DNA from: a virus
Taxonomy: Duplodnaviria > Caudoviricetes
IMG/VR virus record: IMGVR_UViG_3300027810_000010
Coordinates: 892-64,891 of that record
Length of the DNA stretch: 64,000 nt
Direction: 5' to 3' (one strand)
Part shown: positions 5,783 to 64,000 of the stretch, one piece after another
Position numbering within the stretch: the first letter of the stretch is position 1
How the letters are laid out: each line of letters starts with the position of its first letter
Notes under the pieces: model-generated
Told to the model about the DNA's origin: nothing
What the model saw: only the letters and a program-made list of their open reading frames with translations
Database searches by the model: none
Program-made: the position numbers and the translations under genes

Positions 5783-7918
5783 TTAATATTCAAACGGAGG
5801 AGTTCCATAGTCTGCTATCTTAACAGCATACCATACTCCTTTGTATCTGAAATACCAAAATCTTTCTGATTCTAGAATCCATATTTCACCTTTAGGTGAA
5901 ACTGGCTTGTAACCTCCTCTTGTGAAGTACTTTGTAACCGGAACTCCATCTTCCCACGTTTTAGTTGTCGACTGAGCTTCCATTGAACTTCCATCGAATG
6001 TAGCTAAATGCACATTAGCGTCTTGTCCTTCATCTTGTTCATCATTCATGAATTTTAATAAAGAGTCTGGAGCCTCAGACTTAGCCTCTGTAACTACAGA
6101 TTCTTTAATTCCCATAAAGTCAGCTGCTGCTTTCTTTAATTCTTCATATGTATATTTGTCTGTTAGTGCATCTTTTAAAATAGTTCCACCTTTTTTACCA
6201 ATAGCATAAAGAGATACGTGATCAAATCCGAGCCAAGGTCCTACATATTCATCTGTAGCATTCAATCCTAAATCTATTGATAAAGTTCTAGCAAGAGAAT
6301 TCTTTCCTAAGAATTGATCATTATAACCTAATTTACCAGCCTTAATATAATCGCTTGCATTAAAACGAATAGCTTCAGTAACTACTGATTCATTCTTAGG
6401 GAAAGAAGATAATACTTCATCCTTTTGTTTATCATTAAGCCTTTTCCATGATTTTTTAAACATTTCCTCTGATTTATCATGAAGTTGTGAATTACCATAA
6501 TATGGAGGTAATACGTCTCTACCCTGATAATATGTTTCAGTACCTGGCCTTGCTTCATTAACTGTTGAATTATCTTCTCTTAAATTAAACCCAGCGTTTG
6601 TAAGATCAAATAATTTTTTATACAATGTAGAAATTTGCTTTTGTAAAACTCTGGCTTTTTTTGGATCCATTTCGATAATAGCACGCTCAATGTCTAATCC
6701 ACTGTCTTCGTCTAATAATAATGCAAGAAGATCGGCAAACTCTTTTATTGTTTGTCCATTAGATTCGTTAATTACTGATTCGGCAACGATAGTATCATAA
6801 TGAACATCTTGAACATCACCATTATAATCAGCGTAAACATCGATAGACCATTCTTTACCATCATCATCTTTACCTAACCAGAATTGATCTTGACCCTCAT
6901 TACCATGATCATCAATTATATCTTCGTAATCAAATTCAACTTTATGTTTTGTGCTACCTATTTTAAATTCAACGTAGGGCCATTCTTTCTTAGTAACCTT
7001 AATTGATTTAGCTTCAGTTATTACTGATTCCTTTACGAAATTCTTAAGATCATCTGGATCTATAGAGTATTCTACTTCATCAGCATCGCTCCAAAGAATA
7101 ACTTCATCTTTACCAATTTCGTAAATTTCGAATGATGAGTTTTTTAAGATTTCAGATCCATCAACGTCGTTAGTTTTATCATAAACATCTCCATCAAAAT
7201 CATCGCTATCGCTTTTGGCTTTAATATATTGTCCTTTTTTAAATTTAGCTTCGTTAATTACTGATTCAGCAACTTTGATATTTTCCATTTCATCACGAAC
7301 CCAGTTCTTTTCCTTTGAACCTAGTTTATCAAAATCCATACCAAATTCATCATTTGCTAATTCATCTTCTAAATCCATTTGTTCATTAGTTACAGATTCT
7401 TTTAAGTTTTTAATAGTCTTTATAATAGTTTTAATGTCATCATCCATATTACCATAAGTCGGTGATACGTTCGTTTTACGATTCCATGTTGCCATATTGA
7501 CTACTGAACCATCATCATTAATATTATATGAACCACCTGCATATTCATCACCGTCAACATCTAAATCAAATGAATCTTCTTCATAATCAGAACTAACAGT
7601 ATATTTCATACCGTCTAATTTTGTGAGAGCTGCTGCAAATTTCTGTGCAACTTTTAGAGTTTCCTTTTTAGAAAGACCAGCTCTTTTAGCTTCTAAAAGC
7701 ATAGCAGTCGTTTCAATCTCAACATCATTAGAATCATTTTCTTTTAGATGAGATACGTAATTTTCGAATGATTTAAACATTTTCTTTAATTTTTTATTTT
7801 TCTTCTTCTTTGAACCGGAAGGAACATCACCCGAGCCTGTTTCTGTTTCAGTCGGTAGGGAGATTTCTCCCATACCTCCAATATTTGCTGGAGTTATATT
7901 TTCTTCTAGTTCTTTCAT
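5783..7918 (-). CDS. Modular putative capsid-internal polyprotein; about 8 mini-domains separated by ESV(V/I)(T/N)E linkers
   Basis: KSFENYVSHLKE capsid-targeting-like segment. Linkers at 7382, 7250, 7013, 6764, 6552 (degenerate), 6374 and 6086. Confidence 0.75.
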   Translation of the reverse strand: MKELEENITPANIGGMGEISLPTETETGSGDVPSGSKKKKNKKLKKMFKSFENYVSHLKENDSNDVEIETTAMLLEAKRAGLSKKETLKVAQKFAAALTKLDGMKYTVSSDYEEDSFDLDVDGDEYAGGSYNINDDGSVVNMATWNRKTNVSPTYGNMDDDIKTIIKTIKNLKESVTNEQMDLEDELANDEFGMDFDKLGSKEKNWVRDEMENIKVAESVINEAKFKKGQYIKAKSDSDDFDGDVYDKTNDVDGSEILKNSSFEIYEIGKDEVILWSDADEVEYSIDPDDLKNFVKESVITEAKSIKVTKKEWPYVEFKIGSTKHKVEFDYEDIIDDHGNEGQDQFWLGKDDDGKEWSIDVYADYNGDVQDVHYDTIVAESVINESNGQTIKEFADLLALLLDEDSGLDIERAIIEMDPKKARVLQKQISTLYKKLFDLTNAGFNLREDNSTVNEARPGTETYYQGRDVLPPYYGNSQLHDKSEEMFKKSWKRLNDKQKDEVLSSFPKNESVVTEAIRFNASDYIKAGKLGYNDQFLGKNSLARTLSIDLGLNATDEYVGPWLGFDHVSLYAIGKKGGTILKDALTDKYTYEELKKAAADFMGIKESVVTEAKSEAPDSLLKFMNDEQDEGQDANVHLATFDGSSMEAQSTTKTWEDGVPVTKYFTRGGYKPVSPKGEIWILESERFWYFRYKGVWYAVKIADYGTPPFEY
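6086..7399 (-). repeat. Dispersed 18-bp repeat GAATCAGTARTTAMYGAA, cluster 1
   Basis: Copies at 6086-6103 (variant), 6374-6391, 6764-6781, 7013-7030, 7250-7267 and 7382-7399 (variant). Confidence 0.85.
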
Positions 7919-8289
7919 ATCTTAGAAGATTTAGAAGTATCAGATCCTGTTGACTCAAGTGCCTTATACTTTTTAAATTTACCTTTCTTTATATTCTTAA
8001 CAAGATCGTCAACAGAATCTGCTATGTTTCCATATATTTCTAAACCTGTTGCTGCGTTAACTATTTCACCAGAATCTCCGATGAAGTATGATCCTCCTTC
8101 GAATTCTTCTCCATCATAGTCAAGATCAAAACCACCTGCGTCTAAAGATCCTTTGGTAACATTAACTTTTACTCCTTCTATCTTAGAAATAGCTGCAGAT
8201 AACCTAGAGGCAATTGCTGCAGTATCTCTTTGCTTTACTTCATTTAAAGATTCATTAATAAATCTAGCGAAGGTTCTAAATATTTTCAT
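7915..8289 (-). CDS. Putative capsid-internal protein; paralogous to module 1 of 5783-7918
   Basis: N-terminal MKIFRTFARFINE (compare T4 IP targeting sequence MKTYQEFIAE); shared FDLD.DG.E..GGSY.I.D.G..VN.A motif; GATATATA at 8321-8328. Confidence 0.7.
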   Translation of the reverse strand: MKIFRTFARFINESLNEVKQRDTAAIASRLSAAISKIEGVKVNVTKGSLDAGGFDLDYDGEEFEGGSYFIGDSGEIVNAATGLEIYGNIADSVDDLVKNIKKGKFKKYKALESTGSDTSKSSKI

Positions 8290-8335
8290 ATTTCTTTCTT
8301 GTTTTTATAATTTTATACTGTATATATCTTTAAAA

Positions 8336-9454
8336 TTAATGAATTGAATCATGTGCTAATTCATGAACGAAATCCTGATATTCATCTTGTAATTCTGAAC
8401 ACTCTTCTTCTGAAAGAGCTTTTCCATTCGTGTATTCAGCATATTCAATATATGCATCCGAGAAGTCAGGATAATCTCTCATATCTACATCTCCTATTTC
8501 AATAGAACCGACATCTACTTTTTTACCTTTAAATTTAAGAGTGTTAGCTTCATTTATAAATGAATCAAATTCAGTAGATATCATGTTTTCATTAACTGTG
8601 ATTCCTTTAAGAATTCTTTTTCCTAATTTAGAAAGAGTTATTCCTTCTTCAGATACTAGAAAGAATCTTTTATTTGATGCCATCCATCTTTTAGAATTTG
8701 AAGAAAGTTCTTTTAAAATTCTATCAAATTCACCGGCTGCTACTTTACCATCTCTAATAGCTTCTAGCATTTTATTTCTGATTTTAGCTGTCATTCCAAC
8801 TGTTTGAGCTGGATGATTGTCTCCATATTTTCTTTTAGTAATTACTCTCTTCTCTTGAATAGCTTCTTCACTTACCATATCATCATACATCGATTCAGCC
8901 CACTTAATAGTTTCTTTAGTCTTTTCTATTTTACCTTCAAATTCTTTAAAAAATCTTTTGATAAAGTCTGAAAGGTTTCTAGCTTCTTTCGCTATCATAT
9001 CTATTTTTGACATTGTTCCTTCTAGAAGTTGAAATGATTCAGGAATTCCATCGTAGTTTTGACTCCTAAGAACTGTAATGATATTGTATACTACTGATTG
9101 TAATGGAATGTCATATTTCTTAGCCATTTTCTCGATAAATGAATTAACAGATCTGTGAACATCTCTGCTTACGTTTTCATGAAGTTCGAATTCTTCAGTA
9201 GATTCACTAATAACTAATTTTGCATCTTTGTTTTTGCCAGCTACTGCATCATCCAGTTCCTTTACAAGTGCTTTCTTTTTGATTGTTAAATCTATTAACT
9301 GCTGTCTAGATGCTGCTTTATCGTCGCTTCCATCTTCCGCAGAAGTGTATACTTTTACAATTTCTTTCATCTTTACAACTGTTTCTGTAAATTCTTTAGA
9401 GATCTTATTAATTGAACGGGCCTCGTTAATTGTGTTATGGTTATACTTGTTCAT
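8336..9454 (-). CDS. Putative multi-domain head protein with several (I/L/V)-x-E sites
   Basis: TINE-A, LHE-N, LLE-G, IQE-K, VNE-N and FDSFINE-A punctuate the protein; C-terminal D-x-RDYPDFSDAYI domain. Confidence 0.6.
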   Translation of the reverse strand: MNKYNHNTINEARSINKISKEFTETVVKMKEIVKVYTSAEDGSDDKAASRQQLIDLTIKKKALVKELDDAVAGKNKDAKLVISESTEEFELHENVSRDVHRSVNSFIEKMAKKYDIPLQSVVYNIITVLRSQNYDGIPESFQLLEGTMSKIDMIAKEARNLSDFIKRFFKEFEGKIEKTKETIKWAESMYDDMVSEEAIQEKRVITKRKYGDNHPAQTVGMTAKIRNKMLEAIRDGKVAAGEFDRILKELSSNSKRWMASNKRFFLVSEEGITLSKLGKRILKGITVNENMISTEFDSFINEANTLKFKGKKVDVGSIEIGDVDMRDYPDFSDAYIEYAEYTNGKALSEEECSELQDEYQDFVHELAHDSIH

Positions 9455-9476
9455 TTTTATTTATTTATATTTATAT

Positions 9477-10610
9477 TTATCTTAACTGTATTGCAAAACT
9501 AGCTCCTTGTGAACTTGCACGTTCTCCGAAACTAGGAGGACTCGCAACCTGTAGAATGTTCTTTTCAAATAAGGACATAATTGTTTTTGAATCTGAAGTT
9601 GATATTAAAAATTTATTTGTAATATATTTAGGTGTTTTTCCCTTAGGATACGACACTAAAACTATGTATTTAAATTTTTCTATTTGTAAGTAATATGCAT
9701 AATATATTTGTAATAGTATTTTGTTAAAAACTTCTACGTCAAAATCTCCATTCTCAGATATCGCTTTAACAAATGCTTGATTAGGTATTTTAGCACTTAA
9801 TAAATAGGTCTTATATACCTCACCGAGTTCTGCAGAGATCGCAGCTATTTCTCTTTTATCAAAGGGCTTTTCATTTGCCATTGCCTTTAAGCATTTTCCA
9901 AAGGATCCTGAACGCTCCTTTGTTATATTCCAGCTAAGATCTGATTTATTTGAATCGTCTAATATGTTTTGTGGGATTGTTCTTCCAATTGTTTTACATA
10001 TTTCATTTACTCCGGTTTTAAAATTATCTCTCATCTTTTTACCGTCGCCATATCCATGGGTTCCTTGTAATCTTGCACCGTTTCCCTTTACTTCAAATTC
10101 CTTGTTATCAATAATAGTATCTCCCTTTTCTTTAGAGTTTGGTCTTCTACCTTCCTTAAACATAAGAGATAGCCATACCTCTCCAATTCCTGTCGATGGA
10201 GTAGAATTCCATGTAAATTGAAATAATTGTTCAGCAGCTGCTGCATCTAAGCCTATTAAATCTTGTGCCAATTTAATTGGATCTGCTGCTTTTCCAAGTG
10301 CACTAGTATATTGAAGTGTTCTATTTTTAAAATACTCCATCATTTTAACGGGATCTTGACTTCTTTTAAGTATATTAAATCCGGTTTCTACATGCTGTTC
10401 ATGTGGTAGTCCAATTTCATCTCTTAGAAAGTTTTTTAATTCTACTTCAAACCCAGCACCTTGAACAGTTGCTTTCAGTTCAGCTATTGTTCTTTCATCG
10501 TCTGCACTTATAGCACCTATGACAGTGCTTCCTATTGATACTGGTAATGATTTAGCCTCGTTTAATTTATTTAAAAGATACTCGAAATTATTTCTTATTG
10601 AATTAGCCAT
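9477..10610 (-). CDS. Putative restriction-fold (PD-(D/E)xK) nuclease with head-targeting-like N-terminus
   Basis: GIGEVWLSL...KGDTIIDNKEFEVKG pattern (E...GD...EVK); N-terminal NFEYLLNKLNE-A. Confidence 0.55.
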   Translation of the reverse strand: MANSIRNNFEYLLNKLNEAKSLPVSIGSTVIGAISADDERTIAELKATVQGAGFEVELKNFLRDEIGLPHEQHVETGFNILKRSQDPVKMMEYFKNRTLQYTSALGKAADPIKLAQDLIGLDAAAAEQLFQFTWNSTPSTGIGEVWLSLMFKEGRRPNSKEKGDTIIDNKEFEVKGNGARLQGTHGYGDGKKMRDNFKTGVNEICKTIGRTIPQNILDDSNKSDLSWNITKERSGSFGKCLKAMANEKPFDKREIAAISAELGEVYKTYLLSAKIPNQAFVKAISENGDFDVEVFNKILLQIYYAYYLQIEKFKYIVLVSYPKGKTPKYITNKFLISTSDSKTIMSLFEKNILQVASPPSFGERASSQGASFAIQLR

Positions 10611-12474
10611 TGTTTTCTAAAAATTGTTTAAATGTTAATAATGATTCTGTAACTTCATTTGATTCTGAAGCGCCTACTGAATCTTCTAATTTTTTCTTAA
10701 GTTCACTATACATTTTGTGTAAAGCTTTTGGCGTTGTAGACTTGAATAGTTTTTCATCTCCGTCTAACATTGCATTTCTAACCTGAGTCGCTGAAATATT
10801 ATCATCTGTTCTTGGAATTTCAAATAATCCAAAATCACTTCTAACTCCAAGATCTTCTCTATAAGAATCTTTATTTACTTGGAATCCATATGTTTTCATT
10901 CTATCACTTCCTGTTCCCCATAATACAGGTTCATATTTAGGTCTCATTGCGTTAAACATAGTATCAATACCTCCAGTTGGAATTACAAAAATTTCTTTTA
11001 GGAATGGATATTGTTTTTGAACAGCTTTGAACATATCTAATTGTGTCTTCTCGTCATAAGGTCTCTTAAATGCATCTTCCTTTTTCTTGTTCTTAGCTTT
11101 TACTAATAGAACTACAACAGGATGGCCGTTTTCTTTATGAATTGTTTCTAATACCTTGGCATGTCCAAGTGTAAATGGCTGGAATCTTCCAACAAACATA
11201 TTCACTAATTCTTTACCCTGTTCAGGATATTTAACAGTAAGAGCTTCTGAAAGATTTACAGTTGCCTTTATTTGATTATGTAGCATGAAATTGCTATAAT
11301 CATATATAGAATTTTCATCTGTATTTTCAACAAAAATCTTTTTATTGATTTCAGAAATTACTGAGTTGACATGGTTTAACATATCCTTAGTGATAATATC
11401 ACTTTCTTTAGTTCTTTCTTTTCTAAATGATCCTAGCATTATTTTAAATAACTCTGCTAATATAGGGTTAGTAGTATTTGAAAGTGTAGTTTCGTTCTTA
11501 ATGTATTTTGTATTAAGCTTGAATGATTCTAAATCTGCAAAATCTGCACTTTCAAAATTAACACCAATAAATTTAGTTGCATTTTCTTTAACATATTCGT
11601 TAAAGATAACTGACATTAATTCAATGTATCTCCAATCTGCAGATTCTTCATTTAATTGAATATCTGACAGTTTATAAGTTGACATGTATTCTACTAAATT
11701 AGCGATAGTAATCTGATACATATGACTAGATTCTTTTTTCTCATTAAGATCTCTAGCAAAATCTTCTAATTTAAACGATCTAATTTTTTTATCACCAATA
11801 AAAGAAACTATTAATCCATCGATCTCAACTTCAAAATCTTCATTAAGAGTAGGTGATGAAATTGATTCATTAAATACCTTAATCATTGCTTGTGTAAATG
11901 GAAGCTTAGCATCAGTATTAGGATTGTAATCGAATTTATTTTTAAATTCATTATCAGATATTGAAAGTATTTCAATAATTCTATCCTTTTGTAATTGTGA
12001 AAGCATTCCATCAAAGATGATACTTGGCTCCTGTACTTCTAATACCCTAGACCATTTCCTAAGAAGGGAAGGGTCGCTTACGACTTTAGATATTTTACCA
12101 GATTCATTCATGACCTGGATATGTGTTAATATTAAATTGTTCTTAGGTAATTTCGTATACTTATATTGAGAAACTCCAGATTCAGGTAAATATTCAAAAC
12201 CGAATTTCCAGTCAAATGGCATATCTTCCTTAACACTAGGAGGTAAGCTCTGAATGTGCTTAATGGCAGTTTCATATAAACTAGTTATCGTTCTATCTAC
12301 CATTGTCATCTTCTTATCAGAAGATTTAAAATATTCAAACTTATCTTGATTTCTTCTAACGTGAAAAGATGCTCCTTGTATTTTTTCAGTGACAATCACC
12401 CTTTCTTTTAACATTTCGCCAAAGGCATTAATGTTAGTTTCTTGAAATACTTGTCTTAATTTTTTAAGTGCCAT
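10603..12474 (-). CDS. Fusion of an N-terminal ligase-fold domain and a C-terminal HxGH nucleotidyltransferase
   Basis: N-terminal TEKIQGASF, FEY, IDGLIV, FKL (ligase motifs I/III/IV/V); C-terminal GRFQPFTLGH, GSDR, PRT..ISATQVR; ends VTESLLTFKQFLE. Confidence 0.75.
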   Translation of the reverse strand: MALKKLRQVFQETNINAFGEMLKERVIVTEKIQGASFHVRRNQDKFEYFKSSDKKMTMVDRTITSLYETAIKHIQSLPPSVKEDMPFDWKFGFEYLPESGVSQYKYTKLPKNNLILTHIQVMNESGKISKVVSDPSLLRKWSRVLEVQEPSIIFDGMLSQLQKDRIIEILSISDNEFKNKFDYNPNTDAKLPFTQAMIKVFNESISSPTLNEDFEVEIDGLIVSFIGDKKIRSFKLEDFARDLNEKKESSHMYQITIANLVEYMSTYKLSDIQLNEESADWRYIELMSVIFNEYVKENATKFIGVNFESADFADLESFKLNTKYIKNETTLSNTTNPILAELFKIMLGSFRKERTKESDIITKDMLNHVNSVISEINKKIFVENTDENSIYDYSNFMLHNQIKATVNLSEALTVKYPEQGKELVNMFVGRFQPFTLGHAKVLETIHKENGHPVVVLLVKAKNKKKEDAFKRPYDEKTQLDMFKAVQKQYPFLKEIFVIPTGGIDTMFNAMRPKYEPVLWGTGSDRMKTYGFQVNKDSYREDLGVRSDFGLFEIPRTDDNISATQVRNAMLDGDEKLFKSTTPKALHKMYSELKKKLEDSVGASESNEVTESLLTFKQFLENNG

Positions 12475-12495
12475 ATTCTGTTGTATTGTTAATAA

Positions 12496-13869
12496 TTAAT
12501 TTCCGTATTTTATAATTCCCATTAGCTGATTAATCGCAGCAAAAGTACCGGTAAGCTTAAACGTCTTTCCGTTATATATGAATACTAAACCTTCGGTTGG
12601 AATTATTGATTCTATTCCTCCGATTGTTTCTAATCTATTTAACTCTCTTTCCACCTTAGCGATTTGAGTTAAATCTCCGTTCTTTTTAATTTTACCAGCC
12701 TCAGTTCTGATTTGAGTATGTAACCTCTGCTTTTCAGCTTCAGGGTTTGCAGCAACAAAGTTTGAAACATTTTTAAGAACATCAGATCCTAACTCTAAAA
12801 ATAAATTTTCAAAGGGAAGTATGTTTTCTTTATATTTCTTTAGTCTGTTTTTGTCAAATTCTTTAATAGCTTTAATCTGATCTTTATCTACTAATTTCTT
12901 AATATTAACCATGTTTAGAGTTTGCTTGTCACCGTATGCCCATCTTAGTAAAAGGCCATGCTTAACATCTGATAATAATTCAGAGAATTCATTTTCAATT
13001 TGATTTCTCCACCACATTTCATGATACATCTTAACTTCATCAGTATCAGAAAGCTTATAGGTGTCTCTTAGTTTATCAATTTTCTTGATATAGTAATCAA
13101 CCTTTGAATCAAATTCAATGTCCTTGTGCATCTTAAGTATCTGTGGAGGTATGATAGTGAATGTCTTCTGAATGTCAGCTTTTAATTCTTTTAATATTTT
13201 AGCAAGCTTTCCACCTACTTTAGAATCAGTTCCTGTAATATTACCGCTTCCATCCGTGTGTGTAATTCCGTGGAATTGAATAACATCTCTGTCATATCTT
13301 ATTACATTTGGATTTTTAGAATAAATAAGCTCCATATTCATGAAAGAAGTTCCATCCTTAAATTCTGAATAGTCTTTTAATTTTCCTAGTGCTTCTGATA
13401 AATCAGTAGCTGCAAAGATATATGTTTCTTCTACTAATTTAGAAGCATGCCCAGTGAACATTTTGATAACTCCATTTAAATCAAGTGGAGATATTAATTG
13501 TCCTTTATTTCTAGCGAATAATACAATACCGTCTTTTACTGTTACAAATAAGTTTTGTCCATCTGTTTTTTCGGTAGGTTGTTCCTCGAAATTAAGTTCT
13601 CCTTGAAGTGCGCTTGTTGCAATTCTTTTAAAATCTCCAAATGTTAAATCTTGATCATCAAAAGGGTGCATCATGTGTCCTGCTGCTCCGCCTTCGTTAA
13701 TTATCTCTAAGTTGCTCCAAGTTTTAAAGTTTTCCTTTATTAAATTAAATTGATCATACGGCATTATAATGTTTTCACTCAAATAGATAGCAGAGTATTC
13801 TTCTCTAGTCATACCTAATTCATCTGCGTGAAATTTAATAAAGTCCTGATAATTGGTCCATGTTTTCAT
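12496..13869 (-). CDS. RNA/DNA-ligase-fold protein (DUF6267-like family of T4-like phages)
   Basis: IINE-GGAAGHMMHPFD, TEKTDGQN (motif I KxDG), MEL, EGLVF (IV), FKLTGTFAAINQL (V). Confidence 0.7.
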   Translation of the reverse strand: MKTWTNYQDFIKFHADELGMTREEYSAIYLSENIIMPYDQFNLIKENFKTWSNLEIINEGGAAGHMMHPFDDQDLTFGDFKRIATSALQGELNFEEQPTEKTDGQNLFVTVKDGIVLFARNKGQLISPLDLNGVIKMFTGHASKLVEETYIFAATDLSEALGKLKDYSEFKDGTSFMNMELIYSKNPNVIRYDRDVIQFHGITHTDGSGNITGTDSKVGGKLAKILKELKADIQKTFTIIPPQILKMHKDIEFDSKVDYYIKKIDKLRDTYKLSDTDEVKMYHEMWWRNQIENEFSELLSDVKHGLLLRWAYGDKQTLNMVNIKKLVDKDQIKAIKEFDKNRLKKYKENILPFENLFLELGSDVLKNVSNFVAANPEAEKQRLHTQIRTEAGKIKKNGDLTQIAKVERELNRLETIGGIESIIPTEGLVFIYNGKTFKLTGTFAAINQLMGIIKYGN

Positions 13870-13900
13870 AATATCCTATGTTGTTATTGCTAATATAATA

Positions 13901-13930
13901 AAAAAGAATGACCCGGAAAAATCCAGGCCA
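13901..13930 (-). terminator. Rho-independent terminator followed by a TATATTAG element
   Basis: Minus strand TGGCCTGGA-TTTT-TCCGGGTCA stem (with G-U pairs), then TTCTTTTTT. Confidence 0.6.
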
Positions 13931-13948
13931 ACTTTTTTTAATAATTTT

Positions 13949-16039
13949 TTATGCTAATGAAGATTGTAATGCACCGATCATAGCTCCATAATCTTCTCCG
14001 TGTTTTGATATTAATCCGGAAATTACTTCTTCAGCTTTTGTTTCATCATAGTCTTCTTCAAATGCATTTTGTAAAACTGCAGTTGCATATTCTCTAAAAT
14101 CTTCAGCGGAAGATACTTCAGCTTCATTGACATTTGATTCTACTAACACTAACCCTATGTCTTTATAATCTATTTCATGTTCTTCTCCGTCTTGGTCTAC
14201 TGCAAATACTGAATTATCGTTCCACATTGCTGCATTATCATCGTTATTAGAATCAGGATTGTAGATTACATATTCTTTTCCATTTCCAGTTTGAATAGTT
14301 GCATCGTCTGCTTTACCTAATTTCTTTAATAGTGATTTTTTATTGTATTTAGCTTCAGTAATTACTGATTCTGAGAATTCTTCAAGATATTCAACGTCTA
14401 CTGCGTTATTACCTTCCATATCCTTTTGTATTTCCTTGGACTTTAATAACTTTTCTAGTTTTTTAATGTCGTATGGTCCGTCACCTAGCTCGTCTTGAGC
14501 CCAATCAGCTAATATATAATATTCGTTAGAAGAATATCCTTCACCATCTCTAAAATCTCCGATTTCTTCGATCGCAGCTTTAGTAATTTTCTTAGCTTCA
14601 GTAATTACTGATTCAAAGGCTGGAACTAATCCAGTTTTTTTGTAAGTATCTGCCATCATCCATTTTTTAGATTTTACATCCCATAAATAAACGAATTCTG
14701 CACCTTCCTCGTCGCGAGCATCTTGTAAATACTTATCGATTCTTTTAATAGATCCGTTACTTGCAACAGAACCATCTCCATAGAAGTTTATTTTACTTAT
14801 ATCACTATCTAATCCTGAATTTGCTCCTTTAGAAAGAATAGTATCTACATTTTTACCACCTTTAAAAGATTTCTTAATAATTGGTAACATATTGTCTGGG
14901 TAAGAATCATAATGAGTATATACTGATGTGATATTTCCTTTATTATCTATTTTACCAAATTGACCTCTTGTTCCTTCTAATATTAAAGACTCAGTTAATG
15001 TGTTTTCTTTAATAAGAACAGGATATTTCTTTCCGTTAAATTCGAATTCTTCTAAACCTTCATCTTTAGCTTTTTTAGCGGCAGCAGCAAATGCTCTACC
15101 TTCAATTACCTTTTGACCTAATTCTTCAGTTGATTCAAATGCAGAGTTAAACATATCTAACATATCTTGGGCTTCTTTAGTAGCTCCTATTGAATCTAAG
15201 TATATTGCTGTTCCTTCTGCGATTGCAATTCCACTCCAGTCACCTGCCGTAGATACTTTACTAGTAACTTGTTGTAATGCATCTTTGATTTTATTAACGC
15301 TCACCTTAACTGCTAAATTAGCTAATCCTGCAACTTTAATTTCTACAGGAGATATAGAACCTTTAATCTTGTTCATGCATGACATTTCTCTATGAAAATT
15401 TGCGTCTTCTAGAGCATACATACCTAAAACTTTAATACATCCTTTAATTAGATTATTGTTTTTAGATTGTGAAATTCCAGGCATTGAATCCATGATTCTT
15501 TTATATGCCGTAAAAACTTTTTTAGCATCTCTTTTACCAGTAACGTCAATAGCTTCTGTAACTGCTGATTCATATGTAGCATATGTTGCCTTTTCTAAAA
15601 GTTCTTGGGTTTTTAATGAGATAAATTCAATTGATTCTTCTTGCTCAAATTCTTCTTCTAGCATGTCATCTATTACCTCAATTAAAATTTCAGAAGCTTG
15701 ATCTACTTTCTTATATAAATAAAGTCCTTCCATTCTTTTAGCAACAGAACGATCTATTTTTTCAGTAATAACAGACTCCGTTACTTCTTCAACTTCAACT
15801 TCAATTTCTTTAATATCTTCTTCAGATACGTCTCCGAATATCTTAGATATGATTTGTTGCTTCTGATCTTCTTCTAATCCTTCAAAAGAAGTTAGTCCCA
15901 TTTCATCAAGAATAGTTGCTAATTTAGAAACTGATTCTTTTCTTTTTAATTCATTCTCTTCTCTAAGCTTCATTACAGTGTCTTGTGTTCTAACCTCTGT
16001 AAACGACTTAAAAGATGAAATCTTATTAACTTTTGCCAT
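13949..16039 (-). CDS. Modular putative capsid-internal polyprotein with ESVITE linkers
   Basis: N-terminal ISSFKSFTE; linkers at 15761, 15554, 14597, 14354 and 14123. Includes a GTRG...SVYTHYDSYP...EFVYLW domain and an AF..A.KKAK..G.EEFEFNGKKY motif. GATATATA at 16073-16080. Confidence 0.75.
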   Translation of the reverse strand: MAKVNKISSFKSFTEVRTQDTVMKLREENELKRKESVSKLATILDEMGLTSFEGLEEDQKQQIISKIFGDVSEEDIKEIEVEVEEVTESVITEKIDRSVAKRMEGLYLYKKVDQASEILIEVIDDMLEEEFEQEESIEFISLKTQELLEKATYATYESAVTEAIDVTGKRDAKKVFTAYKRIMDSMPGISQSKNNNLIKGCIKVLGMYALEDANFHREMSCMNKIKGSISPVEIKVAGLANLAVKVSVNKIKDALQQVTSKVSTAGDWSGIAIAEGTAIYLDSIGATKEAQDMLDMFNSAFESTEELGQKVIEGRAFAAAAKKAKDEGLEEFEFNGKKYPVLIKENTLTESLILEGTRGQFGKIDNKGNITSVYTHYDSYPDNMLPIIKKSFKGGKNVDTILSKGANSGLDSDISKINFYGDGSVASNGSIKRIDKYLQDARDEEGAEFVYLWDVKSKKWMMADTYKKTGLVPAFESVITEAKKITKAAIEEIGDFRDGEGYSSNEYYILADWAQDELGDGPYDIKKLEKLLKSKEIQKDMEGNNAVDVEYLEEFSESVITEAKYNKKSLLKKLGKADDATIQTGNGKEYVIYNPDSNNDDNAAMWNDNSVFAVDQDGEEHEIDYKDIGLVLVESNVNEAEVSSAEDFREYATAVLQNAFEEDYDETKAEEVISGLISKHGEDYGAMIGALQSSLA
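14354..14614 (-). repeat. 18-bp repeat cluster 2; two identical copies with a perfect 14-bp palindrome TCAGTAATTACTGA
   Basis: ttcagtaattactgattc at 14354-14371 and 14597-14614, both preceded by 'ttagc'. Confidence 0.9.
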
Positions 16040-16071
16040 TTTATTTGCTTTTTAATTTGTTTTATTATTAG

Positions 16072-17580
16072 TTATATATCTCCATCAAATTTGACTTTCT
16101 TAATACTATATTCAAATTTTTCTTGTTTATAAATTTTTTGCCTAGCAATACTATGCTTATATAGGTAATTGTCCCATTCGTCTGTTCTAATATCATCTAC
16201 AAAATCGACTATTAATACTGCATCTTTAGACTCATGCTGCCTTAGACCTCTACCAATTGACTGTCTGATGATTACCTCGGATTTGAATGACTCTGTAAAG
16301 AATATGTTGTGAATTTTCTTGATAGAGATACCTGTCGAGAACGTTCCATAAGAAGCTACGATAACCACCTCATCTCCGGCTTCCATCTTCTTCTTATATT
16401 CTTCTCTAATATCAGTTGCTGTTCCTCCGTCTACATAATATACCCTCTTATTTGTATTCTGTCTAAGATGCTCATATATTTTTTTACCATGCTCAATCCT
16501 ATGAAACAAGACAAGTGAGTTCCTAGGAACCTTGCCAATAACACTACATATAAAGTTTAGTCGTCCGAATGAGTTTATTATGTAGTTTTGTTCTAGTTGG
16601 AATACATCCTTCCTGTCGTATTTATTATGTGCTAATTCTTCGAATGCCTTCTTTGCTTTTTCCGGAGCATAGTCCATTTCTATAACTTTGACTTTACATT
16701 TTGCAATGTGACCTTGTTGTTGTAGAAAACTTGCCTTAACTTCACTAATAACAGGACCCGTCTGGCTCATTAATGTTAATTTATCTAAAGATCCGTCCTT
16801 CGGAATAGTACCTGATAAACCATATTTATAAATTGCACTTGTGCATTTTTGTAGTATAGTCTTGATTGAGTTAGATTTTGCTTTGTGAGTTTCATCAACA
16901 ATGACAGCGTCGAACTGCTCGAAATATTCCTTTGGCTTTTTAACCAGAGATTGATATGTACCTATAACTACATTTCTATCAGATTTGATTTTCTGACCAG
17001 CGTAGATTTGTTGGATTTTTAAATTAATCCTATTCTTGTTATTGTATTCGTGGAAATCTTCATGTGCTTGAACAACTAGAGATACGTTAGGAACTATGAA
17101 CAATATCTTTTTAGCATGTTCTTTTTCTAACATATAAGCTACTGTCAAGAATGATATTAGGGTTTTACCAGCAGATGTCGCTAGCTCAGCTAAACATCTT
17201 CTAAATTTAAGAATATTAAATGCTGTTTCTATTTGATAATCCCTTGGTGTAAATTTACTTCCTTCAAAGAACTCCAATGACCATGACTCAAAGGACTCTG
17301 CTCCTATGTTTCTATCAAATAGTCTTTCAATTCCATTAAGTTTAAGATCAAACTTGTATTCCTTACAAACGAGCATAACGTATCTCCAGAGACCAGCGGG
17401 AATCCACTTATCATCTTTGATATATGAGACATACCCGTCCCATATTCCTTTTTTCACTAAAGGATTAAATCTCCAACTATCAATTCTTTTAGTTAAAGAT
17501 ATTTTAATCTGCTCTAGCTCAAGTTCCTCTGCTTCATCAATTCTTAAAAATTGATCATCTTCGGTTAAAGTTAAAATCAA
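16072..17580 (-). CDS. uvsW: SF2 DNA helicase UvsW
   Basis: WDG, PRDYQ, LATSAGKT, DETH, GLSGT, YGTFSTGISIKKIHNI, QSIGRGLR. Confidence 0.93.
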   Translation of the reverse strand: MILTLTEDDQFLRIDEAEELELEQIKISLTKRIDSWRFNPLVKKGIWDGYVSYIKDDKWIPAGLWRYVMLVCKEYKFDLKLNGIERLFDRNIGAESFESWSLEFFEGSKFTPRDYQIETAFNILKFRRCLAELATSAGKTLISFLTVAYMLEKEHAKKILFIVPNVSLVVQAHEDFHEYNNKNRINLKIQQIYAGQKIKSDRNVVIGTYQSLVKKPKEYFEQFDAVIVDETHKAKSNSIKTILQKCTSAIYKYGLSGTIPKDGSLDKLTLMSQTGPVISEVKASFLQQQGHIAKCKVKVIEMDYAPEKAKKAFEELAHNKYDRKDVFQLEQNYIINSFGRLNFICSVIGKVPRNSLVLFHRIEHGKKIYEHLRQNTNKRVYYVDGGTATDIREEYKKKMEAGDEVVIVASYGTFSTGISIKKIHNIFFTESFKSEVIIRQSIGRGLRQHESKDAVLIVDFVDDIRTDEWDNYLYKHSIARQKIYKQEKFEYSIKKVKFDGDI

Positions 17581-17597
17581 ATTTCATTTGACTATTT

Positions 17598-21325: not shown

Positions 21326-21694
21326 TTAAAATGATTTACCAATTGCAGCACCTAATCCGGCACCTACCAATCTTGAAGTTAATAAATTATAGAATATACC
21401 TTTTTCGATACCTAAAACCTTGGCAATAGTTTTACCAATAGTTTTACCTAATGCAAAACCAGTAAGTCCTCCCATGATAGAACCTAAGAAACCTTCATTA
21501 GTAACCTCTTCATTGAATCTATCAAAATCAAAAGTTCCGTCTTCTTTTCCATATTGTAAAACGAATTCTTCTAAAGCAGAGTCTACCTTTGATTCAAGCT
21601 CTTCATTCCATTCAGATTGTAAGGATTCTTGTAAAAGTATAATCTCTTCAGATGAGATATCTTGTTCGTTTATTAATTCTAAAAATGTTTTCAT
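21326..21694 (-). CDS. Putative head protein: acidic pro-region plus glycine-zipper C-terminal peptide
   Basis: MKTFLELINE; VTNE-GFLGSIMGGLTGFALGKTIG...GAGLGAAIG; GATATATA at 21716-21723. Confidence 0.7.
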   Translation of the reverse strand: MKTFLELINEQDISSEEIILLQESLQSEWNEELESKVDSALEEFVLQYGKEDGTFDFDRFNEEVTNEGFLGSIMGGLTGFALGKTIGKTIAKVLGIEKGIFYNLLTSRLVGAGLGAAIGKSF

Positions 21695-61942: not shown

Positions 61943-62512
61943 TTATTCAGCAGGAGCTTCTTCACTAGGAGATTCATTAACCTCTTTCATTTCATTTACT
62001 TTCTTAGTATATGCTTCAATCATTTCGTTACATGCAGCTTCAAAAGCTTCAACGGTATAATCTTCTTTCATATCTTTAAGAGATTTTGCAGATGTCGCAG
62101 CAACTAGTGCAGCGTTTTCTTTAAAGTATGTTTCAACAGTATGCTCGTCATGTGCATCATCTGCCCATACTTTAGCTTCGTTTTTACATGCTTCATACAA
62201 TTCATGCACCATATCAGATACAAGTTTTGCTTCTTCAGTCTCTTCAGTCTCTTCAACTTCTTTTTCCGTAGCTACAGGTTCGTCAGATTCTGTAACTTCT
62301 TCAGTTTCACAGATACATTCAGATTCTCCACATGCTTCGCATGATTCTTTAATCTCTACATCTTCTGCAATGGCTTCACCGTTTCCTTGAACTTCCTCAG
62401 ATTCTTCTTCAGGACGTTCTTCCGGCTCAGCTGTAGCTACAGTCTCCTGTTCTACTTCAGTAGCTCTATCCATTTCAGATAAAAACTGTTCAAATGATTT
62501 TAATTTTGCCAT
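61943..62512 (-). CDS. Highly acidic putative prohead core/internal protein
   Basis: MAKLKSFEQFLSE targeting-like start, Glu-rich, CxxCxxxxCxC; GATATATA at 62540-62547. Confidence 0.65.
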   Translation of the reverse strand: MAKLKSFEQFLSEMDRATEVEQETVATAEPEERPEEESEEVQGNGEAIAEDVEIKESCEACGESECICETEEVTESDEPVATEKEVEETEETEEAKLVSDMVHELYEACKNEAKVWADDAHDEHTVETYFKENAALVAATSAKSLKDMKEDYTVEAFEAACNEMIEAYTKKVNEMKEVNESPSEEAPAE

Positions 62513-62531
62513 AATTTTATATTTTATTTAT

Positions 62532-64000
62532 TTACTTACTATATATCTTCGATTCTATGATGAATGCATTGAAGTCTGTTATGATAAAGGGCTTAGATTC
62601 AGTAACTACTGATTCTGCAAATGCTTCAATATCCCATTGAATTCTCTGTAGTGGATCATCTCCTCTAAATTCTTTCTTAACCCAATCAATAAGTCCTGTT
62701 TCATTCTTAGCATTTTGTGCCATATCGAAAGCATTATCTGCTCCTCCATTTGCTGCCATATCTTCTAACCATTGATCGTATTTCTTTTGGTTCCATTTAA
62801 CAGCCTTAACTGCTTTCTTATGTGGTCCATCTCCTAATTTAGAAACAGATGCATCGTAAGAACCTGGAAGAAATACACCAACATCCTTACCATTACCATA
62901 TCCAATTTCTTTTCTAAATCTTCTTAAAGAATATTCACCACTTTCGATTTGCTTTCTTCTAGAAACTTCACCTTGTTTTTTACCAAGTTCAATTTTCATT
63001 AACTCAGCAGTTTTAGGATCTGTTTCAAAATGCAATTGTTCTATATTATCAGTTTTAAAAGTAAATACACTCTCAGTAACTACTGATTCAAAGTCACCTT
63101 TGTTTTTGTTATAATATTTTTGAGTAGCCATCGGAAGTTTAAATATAGAAGTACCGTCTTTAAGAGCTCTTTTAATCTGCTTGATCATTCTATCTTTAGA
63201 ATCTTCATTAACTACTGATTCACTAAATAATCTCTTACCTGTGTTATCTTCTAAATGTAATAATGCTTTAGGATATTTCTTTTGCATTACATTAAATGTA
63301 GCAGGAGCAATCTCCGGAGTACTTACAGGTTCTTGATGGATAACTTTACCATCTTGTACAACTACAATAACAGCAGGATAACTTCCTTGCTTTGCTGCTT
63401 TATGTACTTTACCTTTATTAGCCTCAGTAACTCCTCTTGAAGAATCTTTACATGAAGGACAAAATCCTTTGTTTTTTTCCCATGCTTTCCTAGTATTAAC
63501 TTCGTCACATTCTAAACAAGCTATTTTTTGTACCTTCTCAGTAACTACTGATTCGATTATTACTGATTCAAAATCATCAGGTAATCCTCCGTACCATCCT
63601 GAGTTTTTATCACTAGGAGTTCCTTCACCATAAATACTGTCTAGAACTTTAACGTCCATTTCAACATTCCATGATTTAGTTTTACTATCAAAACCAATAT
63701 TCTTTCTAATAGCTCCTCTAGGTTGTTCTGCAACAAACTCTTTAAAATCAAGATAATCTTGTTCTTCTTTAAATGCAAGACCAATAGTATTCTTAGCTTC
63801 AGTAACTACTGATTCGTTCTTTAATCTTTCGATATCATCTTGAATAGATGCCTTTCTACCTTGGTCTGCAGGTGTGTTTGATTTTATTGATTTAAGTAAA
63901 TCTTCAAGCTCTTTAATCTCTTTAGAGTTTTTTGCTTCAGTAACTACTGATTCATTTGCTGAACCATCGGCTGGAAACTTAGATAAATGAGAAACTACAT
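62532..64000 (-). CDS. Modular putative capsid-internal polyprotein; 5' end lies beyond the window
   Basis: The frame is open from 63659 to the window end: ...SAN-ESVVTEA-KNSKEI...RLKN-ESVVTEA-KNTIGL...NVE-MDVK. Seven linker repeats; C-terminal IITDFNAFIIE. Confidence 0.8.
   Translation of the reverse strand, partial: VVSHLSKFPADGSANESVVTEAKNSKEIKELEDLLKSIKSNTPADQGRKASIQDDIERLKNESVVTEAKNTIGLAFKEEQDYLDFKEFVAEQPRGAIRKNIGFDSKTKSWNVEMDVKVLDSIYGEGTPSDKNSGWYGGLPDDFESVIIESVVTEKVQKIACLECDEVNTRKAWEKNKGFCPSCKDSSRGVTEANKGKVHKAAKQGSYPAVIVVVQDGKVIHQEPVSTPEIAPATFNVMQKKYPKALLHLEDNTGKRLFSESVVNEDSKDRMIKQIKRALKDGTSIFKLPMATQKYYNKNKGDFESVVTESVFTFKTDNIEQLHFETDPKTAELMKIELGKKQGEVSRRKQIESGEYSLRRFRKEIGYGNGKDVGVFLPGSYDASVSKLGDGPHKKAVKAVKWNQKKYDQWLEDMAANGGADNAFDMAQNAKNETGLIDWVKKEFRGDDPLQRIQWDIEAFAESVVTESKPFIITDFNAFIIESKIYSK
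62598..63953 (-). repeat. 18-bp repeat cluster 3 (GAATCAGTAGTTACTGAR)
   Basis: Copies at 62598-62615, 63072-63089, 63204-63221, 63537-63554 (with a tandem partial at 63555-63569), 63798-63815 and 63936-63953. Confidence 0.9.

What the first reader, a model, noticed from the sequence alone, without database searches (positions are those of the whole stretch)
5783..64000. Repeat-delimited 'cassette polyproteins': arrays of mini-domains joined by a conserved DNA repeat encoding a putative head-protease site
Seen: three distant genes (5783-7918, 13949-16039, 62532->64000) consist of unrelated modules of about 35-150 aa, each bounded by E-S-V-(V/I)-(T/N)-E-(A). The linker is conserved as DNA as well as peptide. 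At least 13 copies share the exact 9-mer GAATCAGTA (6383, 6773, 7022, 7259, 14363, 14606, 62607, 63081, 63213, 63546, 63561, 63807, 63945), and several share the whole 18-mer, although Ser, Val and Thr codons are free to vary. Known: T4 gp21 cleaves after Glu in (I/L)-x-E, and T4 internal proteins carry an MKTYQEFIAE targeting peptide; similar segments occur here (KSFENY, SSFKSFTE, TDFNAFIIE). Inference: each gene is a repeat-spacer array whose spacers are protein domains. It would be packaged as one polyprotein, cut into many small effectors (e.g. anti-defence proteins) at head maturation, and diversified by recombination between repeats, like an integron or CRISPR array read in frame.
Basis: partly seen in the sequence, partly recalled or inferred. 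Interest (0 to 1): 0.92.

Follow-up and report, generated by a model that had tools for sequence, protein, structure and literature searches.

The report
Shuffled phage polyproteins with cut-site linkers
An uncultured marine giant relative of phage T4 builds long genes from small, unrelated, freely swapped protein modules joined by one short peptide that looks like a cutting site of the phage's head protease, so each gene probably loads many small proteins into the capsid, although no cutting or packaging has been measured.

Summary
All 13 listed GAATCAGTA copies exist, about 1 is expected by chance, and all 15 ESV(V/I)(T/N)E-type peptides of the contig lie in the three genes.

Shown: the linker is conserved as DNA. 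Ser is TCA in 13 of 15 copies against a background of 0.30-0.34. In IMG/VR the real 20-mer occurs in at least 114 stretches, a synonymous control in 7. Modules are exchanged at the linker. Syntenic relatives carry different module orders at the same locus. One module is identical over 251 nt, linker to linker, to a phage whose shared proteins are 30-94% identical. In four marine runs, 14 of 24 contig break-offs lie at linkers.

Inferred (about 0.6): the linker is a site for a T4 gp21-type prohead protease, and the N-terminal F-x-x-F-h-x-E leaders act as capsid-targeting tags. The closest relative encodes such a protease; the window contig, about 26% complete, does not.

Not supported: a dyad-symmetric DNA site maintained by compensatory changes. 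An anti-defence role is untested.

The scan has noted the same class on other DNA. I found no paper describing it.

The parts
5783..7918 (-). Array gene A (711 aa). It has a conserved N-terminal peptide, an internal leader MFKSFENYVSHLKE, then about 9 modules joined by 5 strict and about 4 degenerate linkers.
13949..16039 (-). Array gene B (696 aa). It has the leader MAKVNKISSFKSFTE and 7 modules with 4 strict linkers. It lies between the helicase gene and a 457-aa gene, as in G001 and G002.
62532..64000 (-). Array gene C (at least 488 aa). The 5' end runs off the contig. It has 6 strict linkers, including an abutting double linker.
7250..7267 (-). Linker ESVINE (GAATCAGTAATTAACGAA). It is the upstream edge of the 251-nt tract identical to G001 and a site of contig break-offs in 3 runs.
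7013..7030 (-). Linker ESVITE. It is the junction of modules m5 and m6. Homology to G001 and to L065 ends here, and at least 4 different alternative neighbours are seen in marine contigs.
6764..6781 (-). Linker ESVINE. It is the downstream edge of module m6 and a site of contig break-offs in 3 runs.
6374..6391 (-). Linker ESVVTE
6086..6103 (-). Linker ESVVTE. This variant copy uses TCT and ACA codons.
15761..15778 (-). Linker ESVITE (variant codons)
15554..15571 (-). Linker ESAVTE (variant)
14597..14614 (-). Linker ESVITE
14354..14371 (-). Linker ESVITE. It precedes the widespread module m6 of gene B (14102-14353).
63936..63953 (-). Linker ESVVTE
63798..63815 (-). Linker ESVVTE
63537..63569 (-). 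Abutting double linker ESVII-ESVVTE
63204..63221 (-). Linker ESVVNE
63072..63089 (-). Linker ESVVTE
62598..62615 (-). Linker ESVVTE
7915..8289 (-). Stand-alone leader-bearing gene (MKIFRTFARFINE...). Its body is homologous to module m3 of gene A (37% identity, E 7e-17).
8336..9454 (-). Modular gene with degenerate junctions (..INE|A, ..ISE|S, ..LLE|G, ..INE|A). Its modules are shared with the 1072-aa array of G002.
61943..62512 (-). Acidic leader-bearing gene (MAKLKSFEQFLSE...). Its G002 orthologue carries module m9 of gene A as an insert.
21326..21694 (-). Small gene with a T4-CTS-like start (MKTFLELINE...)
16073..16080 (-). GATATATA motif 33 nt upstream of gene B. The same motif precedes 7915-8289, 61943-62512 and tail or baseplate genes. 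It is a candidate shared (late?) promoter element.

Best explanation
The window is a fragment (about a quarter) of a giant marine myophage of the T4 superfamily. Three of its genes are in-frame arrays of small, unrelated, autonomously folding modules. Each array starts with a short leader of the T4 capsid-targeting type: aromatic residues three apart, then aliphatic-x-Glu. Its modules are joined by the hexapeptide E-S-V-(V/I)-(T/N)-E, usually followed by Ala.

Most likely mechanism, in four steps:
1. The whole array is made as one protein.
2. The leader takes it into the prohead core.
3. The phage's gp21-family prohead protease cuts it after the second Glu of every linker.
4. One gene therefore delivers many separate small proteins into the capsid, and probably into the host with the DNA.

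The same 18-24 nt of linker DNA serve as micro-homology for in-frame recombination. Modules are gained, lost, reordered and passed between loci and between diverged phages as cassettes. This also keeps the linker DNA uniform.

Shown here: the array anatomy, the DNA-level conservation, and cassette exchange with junctions in the linker.

Inferred: targeting, cleavage, delivery, and any role of the modules (for example against host defences).
For: Anatomy:
- All 15 linker peptides of the contig lie in the three genes.
- The module tested folds as a small domain (AlphaFold2 on a 27-sequence alignment, mean pLDDT 77.9; a helix plus five strands). Its linker tail is disordered, with pLDDT below 50.

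DNA-level conservation in the window:
- Ser TCA in 13 of 15 copies, background 0.30-0.34, P = 4.6e-5.
- P4 Val GTA in 13 of 14, P = 1.2e-4.
- P3 Val GTT in 9 of 9, P = 0.0068.
- Ala GCT in 8 of 9, P = 0.0052.

DNA-level conservation elsewhere:
- In relatives retrieved by protein similarity, Ser is TCA in 25 of 35 linkers.
A control with two synonymous codons changed occurs in 7.
- In the 79 new loci analysed, all 85 ORFs that hold the 20-mer are open in the frame that reads it as ESV, and their median length is 573 aa.

Cassette exchange:
- G002 and G001 are syntenic with the window. Shared proteins are 30.6-96% identical to G002 and 30-94% to G001.
- At the orthologous helicase-flanked locus the segment-family order differs: F5-F1-F7-F75 in the window, F5-F7-F8-F1 in G002, F1-F82-F16-F0 in G001.
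- Modules m5-m6 of gene A occur in the order m6-m5 in G001.
- Module m5 is identical to G001 over window 7270-7020, 251 nt with 0 mismatches, from linker to linker. The neighbouring m6 is only 89% identical to G001 but 97.3% identical to L065. Both alignments end inside linkers.
- 136 array ORFs split into 413 segments and 209 families. One family of 27 members has 15 different left-neighbour families.
- Internal BLAST alignment ends fall within 5 aa of a linker 1139 of 4954 times, against 321 expected. These ends are not independent of one another.
- In contigs of four marine runs, 14 of the 24 listed break-offs lie within 6 nt of a strict linker. The linkers with that margin cover about 6% of the stretch laid, so about 1.4 are expected.

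Protease-site reading:
- T4 gp21 cuts C-terminal to Glu after L/I-X-E, first seen at a Glu-Ala bond. CTS residues 4 and 7 govern targeting and residues 8 and 10 govern processing (PMC9026906, passages). The T4 CTS is MKTYQEFIAE (PMC8442874, passage).
- The linkers end (V/I)-(T/N)-E|A.
- The leaders read, for example, MKKVKLFESFIAE|A, MAKLKSFEQFLSE and MKTFLELINE.
- The same module is preceded by an N-terminal leader in one phage and by a linker in another, with the junction ...E|A at the same residue. Examples are the NKGKVHK... module (G001, window, L066) and the AK..GLSKKE... module.
- G002 encodes a head-maturation protease: PF03420 at 41.6 bits against a cut-off of 27, and phrog_207 at E 2e-41. 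It is fused to an acidic scaffold-like tail that itself carries RVNE|S and VESVNE|A. It lies beside the portal gene and a gp23-type capsid gene.
- In 2 of 3 T4-like marine contigs examined, the most widespread module (m6 of gene B) sits in a 738-817 aa protein zero or one gene upstream of the gp21 protease gene.
- GATATATA lies 12-45 nt upstream of gene B, of the operon leading into gene A, of 61943-62512, and of tail and baseplate genes. All 10 copies are on the coding strand.
Against: - No cleavage, packaging or injection has been observed for any member. No cultured or GenBank phage carries these proteins: tblastn with gene A and gene B found nothing in 50,697 phage records.
- The window contig has no protease or capsid gene. 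The protease evidence comes from a relative.
- 'Aliphatic-x-Glu' is a very short rule that many sequences meet by chance.
- Unlike the highly basic T4 internal proteins, most modules are acidic: 18 of 25 segments carry a net negative charge, and genes A and B have a pI of 4.6.
- The predicted cut site in the G002 capsid protein (GINE|A) is not conserved in its closest GenBank relative, so I could not anchor the site on a bona fide substrate.
- The array genes lie among replication genes, not in the head module.
- The HSP-end and break-off counts include non-independent observations.
Confidence: 0.6

Rival explanations
1. The arrays are ordinary, uncleaved multidomain proteins. ESVVTEA is a conserved inter-domain connector or a short docking motif repeated for multivalency. 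Shuffling happens at the linker only because that is the one place where recombination keeps both the frame and the folds.
For: No cut has been observed. The modules are mostly acidic, unlike T4 internal proteins. The genes lie among replication genes. The protease-plus-linker co-fold gave no verdict, so it counts for nothing either way.
Against: - Passive linkers are not normally conserved as a six-residue hydrophobic-polar peptide across 202 distinct contexts.
- N-terminal leaders and internal linkers are interchangeable in front of the same module, at the same ...E|A junction. This fits a processing site that yields the same mature N-terminus.
- The arrays begin with T4-CTS-like leaders.
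- The same modules also exist as stand-alone leader-bearing genes.
Confidence: 0.2
2. The arrays are cut by the prohead protease but are expendable core or scaffold material, an expanded counterpart of T4 gp67/gp68/gp22. They would be degraded and expelled at maturation, not delivered as cargo with functions in the host.
For: - The acidic composition resembles scaffold proteins.
- In T4-like marine contigs, a protein holding module m6 occupies the position just upstream of the gp21 gene, where T4 has its small core genes (the T4 gene order is recalled).
- T4 core proteins are cut into many fragments (PMC9958956 and PMC9026906, passages).
Against: - The modules are unrelated, individually conserved and predicted to fold.
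- They turn over as cassettes between diverged phages, at up to 100% DNA identity.
- They also occur as stand-alone genes. This pattern is expected of accessory cargo under diversifying selection, not of assembly scaffolds.
- 134 of 209 segment families are singletons.
Confidence: 0.12
3. The primary element is the DNA: a dyad-symmetric site (TCAGTA-RT-TACTGA) for a dimeric recombinase or nuclease. The peptide would be a by-product.
For: The commonest versions are symmetric. TCAGTAATTACTGA is a perfect 14-nt palindrome. Synonymous codons are strongly constrained.
Against: - Only 69 of 202 distinct linkers are 6+6 symmetric.
- ESVVNE, which breaks the symmetry, is as common as ESVVTE (80 against 75).
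- Ser TCT pairs with Thr ACT 16 times and with ACA once. The Val/Leu versus Thr/Asn changes trend against symmetry (Fisher P = 0.029). All of this is, whose set is enriched for the searched 20-mer.
- In the 79 loci analysed, every ORF holding the 20-mer is open in the frame that reads it as ESV.
- Variants that change the DNA keep the peptide class (ESL...).
- No recombinase was found among the 31 of 47 window ORFs scanned.
Confidence: 0.05

Closest known systems
Phage T4 internal proteins IPI, IPII, IPIII and Alt (capsid-targeting sequence removed by prohead protease gp21)
   Same: Both have an N-terminal leader of about 10-20 aa with aromatic residues three apart, ending aliphatic-x-Glu before Ala. 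The cleavage rule is 'after Glu'. Both are diverse, non-conserved cargo encoded outside the head module. A gp21-family protease is present in the lineage.
   Different: T4 IPs are single small basic proteins cut once (PMC8442874, passage). Here many unrelated, mostly acidic modules are chained in one gene with a longer, near-invariant internal site that is also fixed at the DNA level. Packaging and cleavage are unshown here.
Multiply cleaved head and inner-body proteins of giant phages phiKZ, 201phi2-1 and SPN3US
   Same: These are giant myophages whose gp21-related protease cuts many head proteins after Glu at short motifs, often at several sites per protein (PMC5694885 and PMC9026906, passages).
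   Different: Their motifs are S/A/G-X-E or A-X-E. Their substrates have long propeptides and paralogous families. They are not arrays of unrelated cassettes with a uniform linker and documented cassette exchange.
Polyvalent proteins of phages and conjugative elements (Iyer et al. 2017, PMC5512222)
   Same: Many functionally disparate domains are fused in one phage polypeptide. Those authors themselves compare such proteins to viral polyproteins released by peptidases (passages).
   Different: Polyvalent proteins are defined by recognisable conflict domains and embedded peptidases. None was detected here. Their joints are not a repeated conserved peptide.
[quoted passage not shown] 2010, PMC2839356)
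   Same: Short conserved DNA repeats flanking accessory genes act as recombination substrates that shuffle modules in T4-type phages (abstract).
   Different: PeSLs are intergenic promoter-plus-terminator units that move whole genes. Here the repeat is coding, is read in frame, and shuffles protein modules within a gene.
Integron gene-cassette arrays
   Same: Both are ordered arrays of unrelated cassettes bounded by a recurring site, with gain, loss and reordering.
   Different: No integrase was found. The repeat's symmetry is not maintained. The cassettes are translated as one protein. This is an analogy only.

Membership tests
T4-type capsid-targeted, gp21-processed internal proteins | N-terminal leader of about 10-20 aa with targeting residues three apart (T4 positions 4 and 7), ending aliphatic-x-Glu | tested here: met
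   Sequence pattern only. The regex [FYW]..[FYW]h(x)xE within the first 22 aa hits 2 of 48 (G000), 13 of 145 (G001) and 9 of 141 (G002) coding-strand ORFs of at least 100 aa. Examples are MKKVKLFESFIAE and MAKLKSFEQFLSE. Genes A and B carry looser versions. T4 rule: PMC9026906 and PMC8442874.
T4-type capsid-targeted, gp21-processed internal proteins | Same phage encodes a gp21-family (Peptidase_S77) prohead protease | tested here: inconclusive
   No match in the window contig, which CheckV rates 26% complete. Present in syntenic G002: PF03420 at 41.6 bits and phrog_207 at 2e-41. Absent from G001, which is 66% complete.
T4-type capsid-targeted, gp21-processed internal proteins | Processing site C-terminal to Glu after an aliphatic-X motif, typically Glu-Ala | tested here: met
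   As a sequence pattern, all 15 window linkers end (V/I)-(T/N)-E. The next residue is Ala in 9, Ser in 3 and Lys or Asp in 3. Actual cleavage could not be tested.
T4-type capsid-targeted, gp21-processed internal proteins | Protein is present in the capsid and ejected with the DNA | not testable with these tools
   The phage is uncultured and no proteomic data are available.
T4-type capsid-targeted, gp21-processed internal proteins | Small, highly basic proteins cleaved once | tested here: not met
   The arrays are 488-711 aa with 4-6 strict sites each. 18 of 25 segments carry a net negative charge.
Polyvalent proteins (Iyer et al. 2017) | Recognisable conflict-related domains and/or an embedded peptidase among the fused domains | tested here: not met
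   Pfam: no family above its cut-off in genes A, B or C. PHROGs: only two families of unknown function.
Integron-like cassette system | Adjacent site-specific recombinase | tested here: inconclusive
   None among the 31 of 47 window ORFs scanned with PHROGs. The other ORFs and the missing three quarters of the genome were not scanned.
Integron-like cassette system | Recombination site whose symmetry or structure is maintained by compensatory change | tested here: not met
   69 of 202 linkers are symmetric. TCT pairs with ACT 16 times and with ACA once. There is no positive covariation.

The most novel reading that the evidence does not exclude
The linker is a dual-use element selected at two levels. 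As a peptide it is the prohead-protease site that turns one capsid-targeted gene into many delivered proteins. As DNA it is a fixed about 20-nt micro-homology that lets a whole guild of marine T4-superfamily phages trade in-frame protein cassettes. This would be a translated cassette array without an integrase, generating combinatorial repertoires of injected host-takeover or counter-defence proteins.
Probability: 0.35. Interest if true: 0.85.

Novelty: new variant of a known kind. Interest (0 to 1): 0.72.

Why it matters
If the linkers are cut in the prohead, one leader and one gene would load a dozen different small proteins into a capsid. That extends the T4 internal-protein paradigm from single proteins to polyproteins.

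The cassette exchange documented here shows how phages could reshuffle such cargo very quickly. Evidence includes identical 251-nt modules in phages that are otherwise 30-94% identical at the protein level, and several alternative neighbours at one linker in seawater metagenomes.

The pool of modules is large: 209 segment families from 136 arrays, most of them singletons. It is entirely unannotated, which makes it a defined hunting ground for new host-takeover or anti-defence proteins.

The linker and leader together also suggest a natural design for multi-cargo packaging in engineered T4-type capsids.

Tried and rejected
**Searches of known collections**
- GenBank phages: megablast with window 5000-20000, and tblastn with genes A and B, found nothing.
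- Pfam on 9 proteins gave nothing above cut-off for the arrays.
- PHROGs gave only unknown-function families for genes A and B.
- ESM Atlas: for module m4 of gene B, only unnamed viral clusters below the 0.9 lead level. For m6, no usable hit.

**Structure and complex prediction**
- The Foldseek PDB search with the m6 model found no match at E <= 0.001. The best rows were Hfq/Sm-like at E about 0.02 and TM about 0.5. I treat this as a weak lead on fold only.
- The co-fold of the G002 protease domain (residues 1-170) with a 44-residue stretch of G002's own array around a linker gave 'no answer' (score 0.00). It is not used for or against binding.

**Capsid-protein anchor**
- I tried to anchor the cut site on the capsid protein. 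G002 has ...GINE|AEK near its N-terminus, but the closest GenBank relative (LR756500.1, 52% identical) has no Glu there, so I dropped this argument.
- LR756500.1 holds only one match to a relaxed linker DNA pattern in 462 kb, so that lineage does not use this linker.

**Palindrome and compensatory-change idea**
- Tested and rejected. That tally is enriched for the searched 20-mer, because 79 loci were retrieved with it. For codon frequencies I therefore rely on the window itself, on the protein-retrieved relatives and on the control scan.

**Other items**
- GATATATA is not over-represented overall (10 seen, 8.9 expected). Only its strand and position are unusual.
- RNA-library contigs cover 6770-8300, but DNA carry-over cannot be excluded, so I claim no transcription. 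Parts without cover in the laid runs are not interpreted. The two joints in run X9 (one with a 22-letter side) were not used.

**Literature**
- Five searches found no paper describing linker-joined cargo polyproteins.
- I saw only listings, abstracts and the passages cited.
Figure 3 of PMC5694885 and PMC9026906 (the T4 cleavage logo) was not visible.

Full report
**1. What is there**

The window is bases 892-64891 of a single 64,891-bp IMG/VR virus record. It has 32.7% G+C and no terminal overlap, and CheckV rates it 26% complete.

All large ORFs are on the minus strand. PHROGs identifies the following:
- a DnaB-type helicase, a primase and an SSB;
- a cytidylyltransferase-like protein;
- tail-fibre-like proteins;
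- a baseplate wedge, hub and lysozyme;
- a head-tail adaptor.

No capsid or protease gene lies in the contig.

They are 5783-7918 (711 aa), 13949-16039 (696 aa) and 62532 to the contig end (at least 488 aa).

GAATCAGTA occurs at all 13 listed places on the coding strand, against 1.0 expected. A six-frame scan for E[ST][VILA][VIL][TNS]E finds 15 sites in the whole contig, all in these three genes.

**2. The linker is conserved as DNA beyond what the peptide needs**

| Position in the 15 window copies | Codon | Count | Background share in this genome | Binomial P |
|---|---|---|---|---|
| Ser | TCA | 13 of 15 | 0.30-0.34 | 4.6e-5 |
| Val (P4) | GTA | 13 of 14 | 0.38-0.42 | 1.2e-4 |
| Val (P3) | GTT | 9 of 9 | 0.43-0.57 | 0.0068 |
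| Thr | ACT | 10 of 12 | 0.43-0.53 | 0.031 |
| Ala | GCT | 8 of 9 | 0.32-0.42 | 0.0052 |

The copies are not independent, and that is the point: they are kept alike.

In ten relatives retrieved by protein similarity, Ser is TCA in 25 of 35 linkers.

A control that differs only by two synonymous codons, TCT and GTT, both at least as common in these genomes, occurs in 7.

In the 79 new loci returned, all 85 ORFs that hold the 20-mer are open in the frame that reads it as ESV. Their median length is 573 aa.

**3. Modules move as cassettes, with junctions in the linker**

Two long IMG/VR contigs are syntenic with the window over its whole length.

| Contig | Length | CheckV completeness | Identity of shared proteins to the window |
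|---|---|---|---|
| G002 | 167.7 kb | 55% | 30.6-96% |
| G001 | 175.2 kb | 66% | 30-94% |

At the orthologous locus next to the helicase, the order of segment families differs:
- window: F5-F1-F7-F75
- G002: F5-F7-F8-F1
- G001: F1-F82-F16-F0

Modules also move between the three loci:
- Gene A's m9 sits in the G002 orthologue of 61943-62512.
- Gene C's large module sits in G002's locus-A gene.
- Gene A's m4 sits in the gene-B orthologue of L001.
- Gene A's m5-m6 are in the order m6-m5 in G001.

At the DNA level, window 7270-7020 has no mismatch to G001. This tract runs from the linker at 7250-7267 into the linker at 7013-7030, 251 nt in all. The adjacent module m6 is 89% identical to G001 but 97.3% identical to another contig, L065. 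Both alignments end inside linkers.

Pooling 136 non-identical array ORFs from all sources gives 413 segments in 209 families, 134 of them singletons. The 141 segments bounded by strict linkers on both sides have a median length of 87 aa. One family of 27 members has 15 different left-neighbour families.

Internal ends of BLAST alignments between arrays fall within 5 aa of a strict linker 1139 of 4954 times, against 321 expected. These ends are non-independent.

The stretch 5700-8300 is held by marine, seawater or estuary metagenomes: 14 runs from 8 studies hold at least half of its sampled words. Contigs of four runs were laid on it. Of the 24 listed places where a contig goes on with unlike sequence, 14 lie within 6 nt of a strict linker, against about 1.4 expected. 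At least four different continuations occur at the 7013-7030 linker alone. The shared linker identity (at most about 24 nt) is shorter than the 31-letter words's index of these contigs, and I assume the contigs were assembled with words of about that length. If so, assembly chimeras are an unlikely cause.

**4. Why the linker is probably a prohead-protease site**

The lineage belongs to the T4 superfamily. G002 has a head module made of four adjacent genes:
- a portal gene;
- a small leader-bearing gene;
- a 686-aa head-maturation protease (PF03420 at 41.6 bits against a cut-off of 27; phrog_207 at 2e-41) fused to an acidic scaffold-like tail;
- a gp23-type capsid gene (PF07068, 1.5e-46).

Its capsid protein is closest to a 462-kb uncultured phage (52% identity) and to Lak phages (about 38%).

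The published T4 rule has four parts:
- gp21 cuts after Glu following L/I-X-E, first seen at a Glu-Ala bond (PMC9026906).
- The 10-residue CTS MKTYQEFIAE targets internal proteins to the core (PMC8442874).
- Residues 4 and 7 of the CTS matter for targeting, and residues 8 and 10 for processing (PMC9026906).
- Related giant-phage proteases also cut after Glu (PMC5694885).

The features seen here fit that rule:
- The linkers end (V/I)-(T/N)-E, followed by Ala in 9 of 15.
- Many genes in the array loci of the window, G001 and G002 start with M-K-x-h-K-(L/S)-F-E-x-F-h-x-E, followed by A, G or S. Examples are MKKVKLFESFIAE|A, MKHLQLFEQFVNE|A and MAKLKSFEQFLSE.
- The same module is preceded in one phage by such a leader and in another by a linker, with the ...E|A junction at the same residue. 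This is the most telling point. It is what a processing site that releases the same mature protein would look like.
- The protease-scaffold fusion of G002 carries RVNE|S at the end of the protease domain. This is conserved as RVNE|A in LR756500.1. The fusion also carries VESVNE|A near its C-terminus.
- In 2 of 3 T4-like marine contigs examined (G003, G005), the most widespread module sits in a 738-817 aa protein that starts MKT(L/I)(T/Q)EKY... That protein lies zero or one gene upstream of the gp21 gene. In the third (G004) the module is in a 1339-aa protein about 12 kb away.
- A GATATATA motif lies 12-45 nt upstream of gene B, of the operon that runs into gene A, of 61943-62512, and of tail and baseplate genes. 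All 10 copies are on the coding strand. This suggests co-regulation with virion genes. The resemblance to the T4 late promoter is recalled, not tested.

**5. What argues against, and what failed**

- Nothing shows cleavage, packaging or delivery.
- The window has no protease gene of its own.
- The modules are mostly acidic (18 of 25 segments), whereas T4 IPs are basic (PMC8442874).
- The short aliphatic-x-Glu rule is easily met by chance.
- A capsid-protein anchor for the site did not hold up.
- No module has a named function. The one fold obtained is a small helix-plus-five-strand barrel with only weak Hfq/Sm-like matches.
  - 69 of 202 distinct linkers are symmetric.
  - The symmetry-breaking ESVVNE is as common as ESVVTE.
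  - TCT pairs with ACT 16 times and with ACA once.

**6. Comparison with what is known, and verdict**

The system works like T4's internal-protein pathway (leader, gp21-type site, diverse cargo). It differs in three respects:
- Cargo is chained as polyproteins.
- The internal site is long and near-invariant.
- The site's DNA doubles as a recombination substrate.

The recombination role recalls intergenic PeSL cassettes of T4-type phages (PMC2839356, abstract) but lies in frame. The arrays are not members of the polyvalent-protein class as defined, because no known conflict domains or embedded peptidases were found. They are integron-like by analogy only.

Five literature searches found no description of this arrangement. 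Within this scan the same class has been noted repeatedly on other DNA, with the same caveat that no cut has been measured.

I rate the array anatomy and cassette exchange as shown. I put the prohead-protease and capsid-cargo mechanism at about 0.6, and any anti-defence role is open.

Noticed in passing
window 7778-7918 (minus strand; N-terminus of gene A): Gene A starts with a conserved peptide of about 45 aa (ENITPANIGGMG..LP..GSGDVPSG), then a Lys run. Only after that comes a Met followed by a CTS-like leader (MFKSFENY...). The same three-part N-terminus is found in G001, G002, L065, L007 and L009. It could mean two alternative starts or a second signal.
   Followed up: partly
window 199, 8321, 16073, 20351, 21716, 35509, 41998, 49304, 50710, 62540: GATATATA occurs 10 times, all on the coding strand. 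Seven copies lie 12-45 nt upstream of start codons, of array or leader genes and of tail, baseplate and neck-cluster genes alike. The overall count equals chance (8.9). It is a candidate promoter element.
   Followed up: partly
window 62532-62597 (minus strand; C-terminus of gene C): After the last linker, gene C ends with a leader-like peptide (..ITDFNAFIIE SKIYSK stop). It looks as if the leader of a once separate downstream gene had been fused on.
   Followed up: no
L148 and L137 (IMG/VR loci), compared with window 13949-14098: The module that ends gene B and its orthologues (..SSLA or ..TSSLG, then stop) is followed in L148 and L137 by a linker and a further module instead of a stop. Arrays can therefore also grow at their 3' end.
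   Followed up: no
window 7022-7267: In estuary run X11 the m5 cassette lies on a 596-nt contig with depth 34.5, against about 8.4 for the flanks. That contig departs from the window on both sides at the linkers. The cassette is therefore carried by other, more abundant genomes in the same water.
   Followed up: partly
L029, L033, L046 and L053 (T4-like marine contigs): The 738-821 aa protein next to the gp21 gene shares a conserved C-terminal half that includes a DHDGDGDVDGDDY acidic loop. Its middle is variable and holds the m6 module.
   Followed up: no
window 63537-63569; also L066 and L001: Abutting or overlapping double linkers (ESVIIESVVTE here, ESVVIESVEINE in L001) travel with their module. 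They may be scars of out-of-register exchange between linkers.
   Followed up: no
window 6770-8300: Contigs from a marine metatranscriptome library (X15) cover this part of gene A and the upstream genes at 90% identity or more, and also break at the linkers. DNA carry-over cannot be excluded.
   Followed up: no
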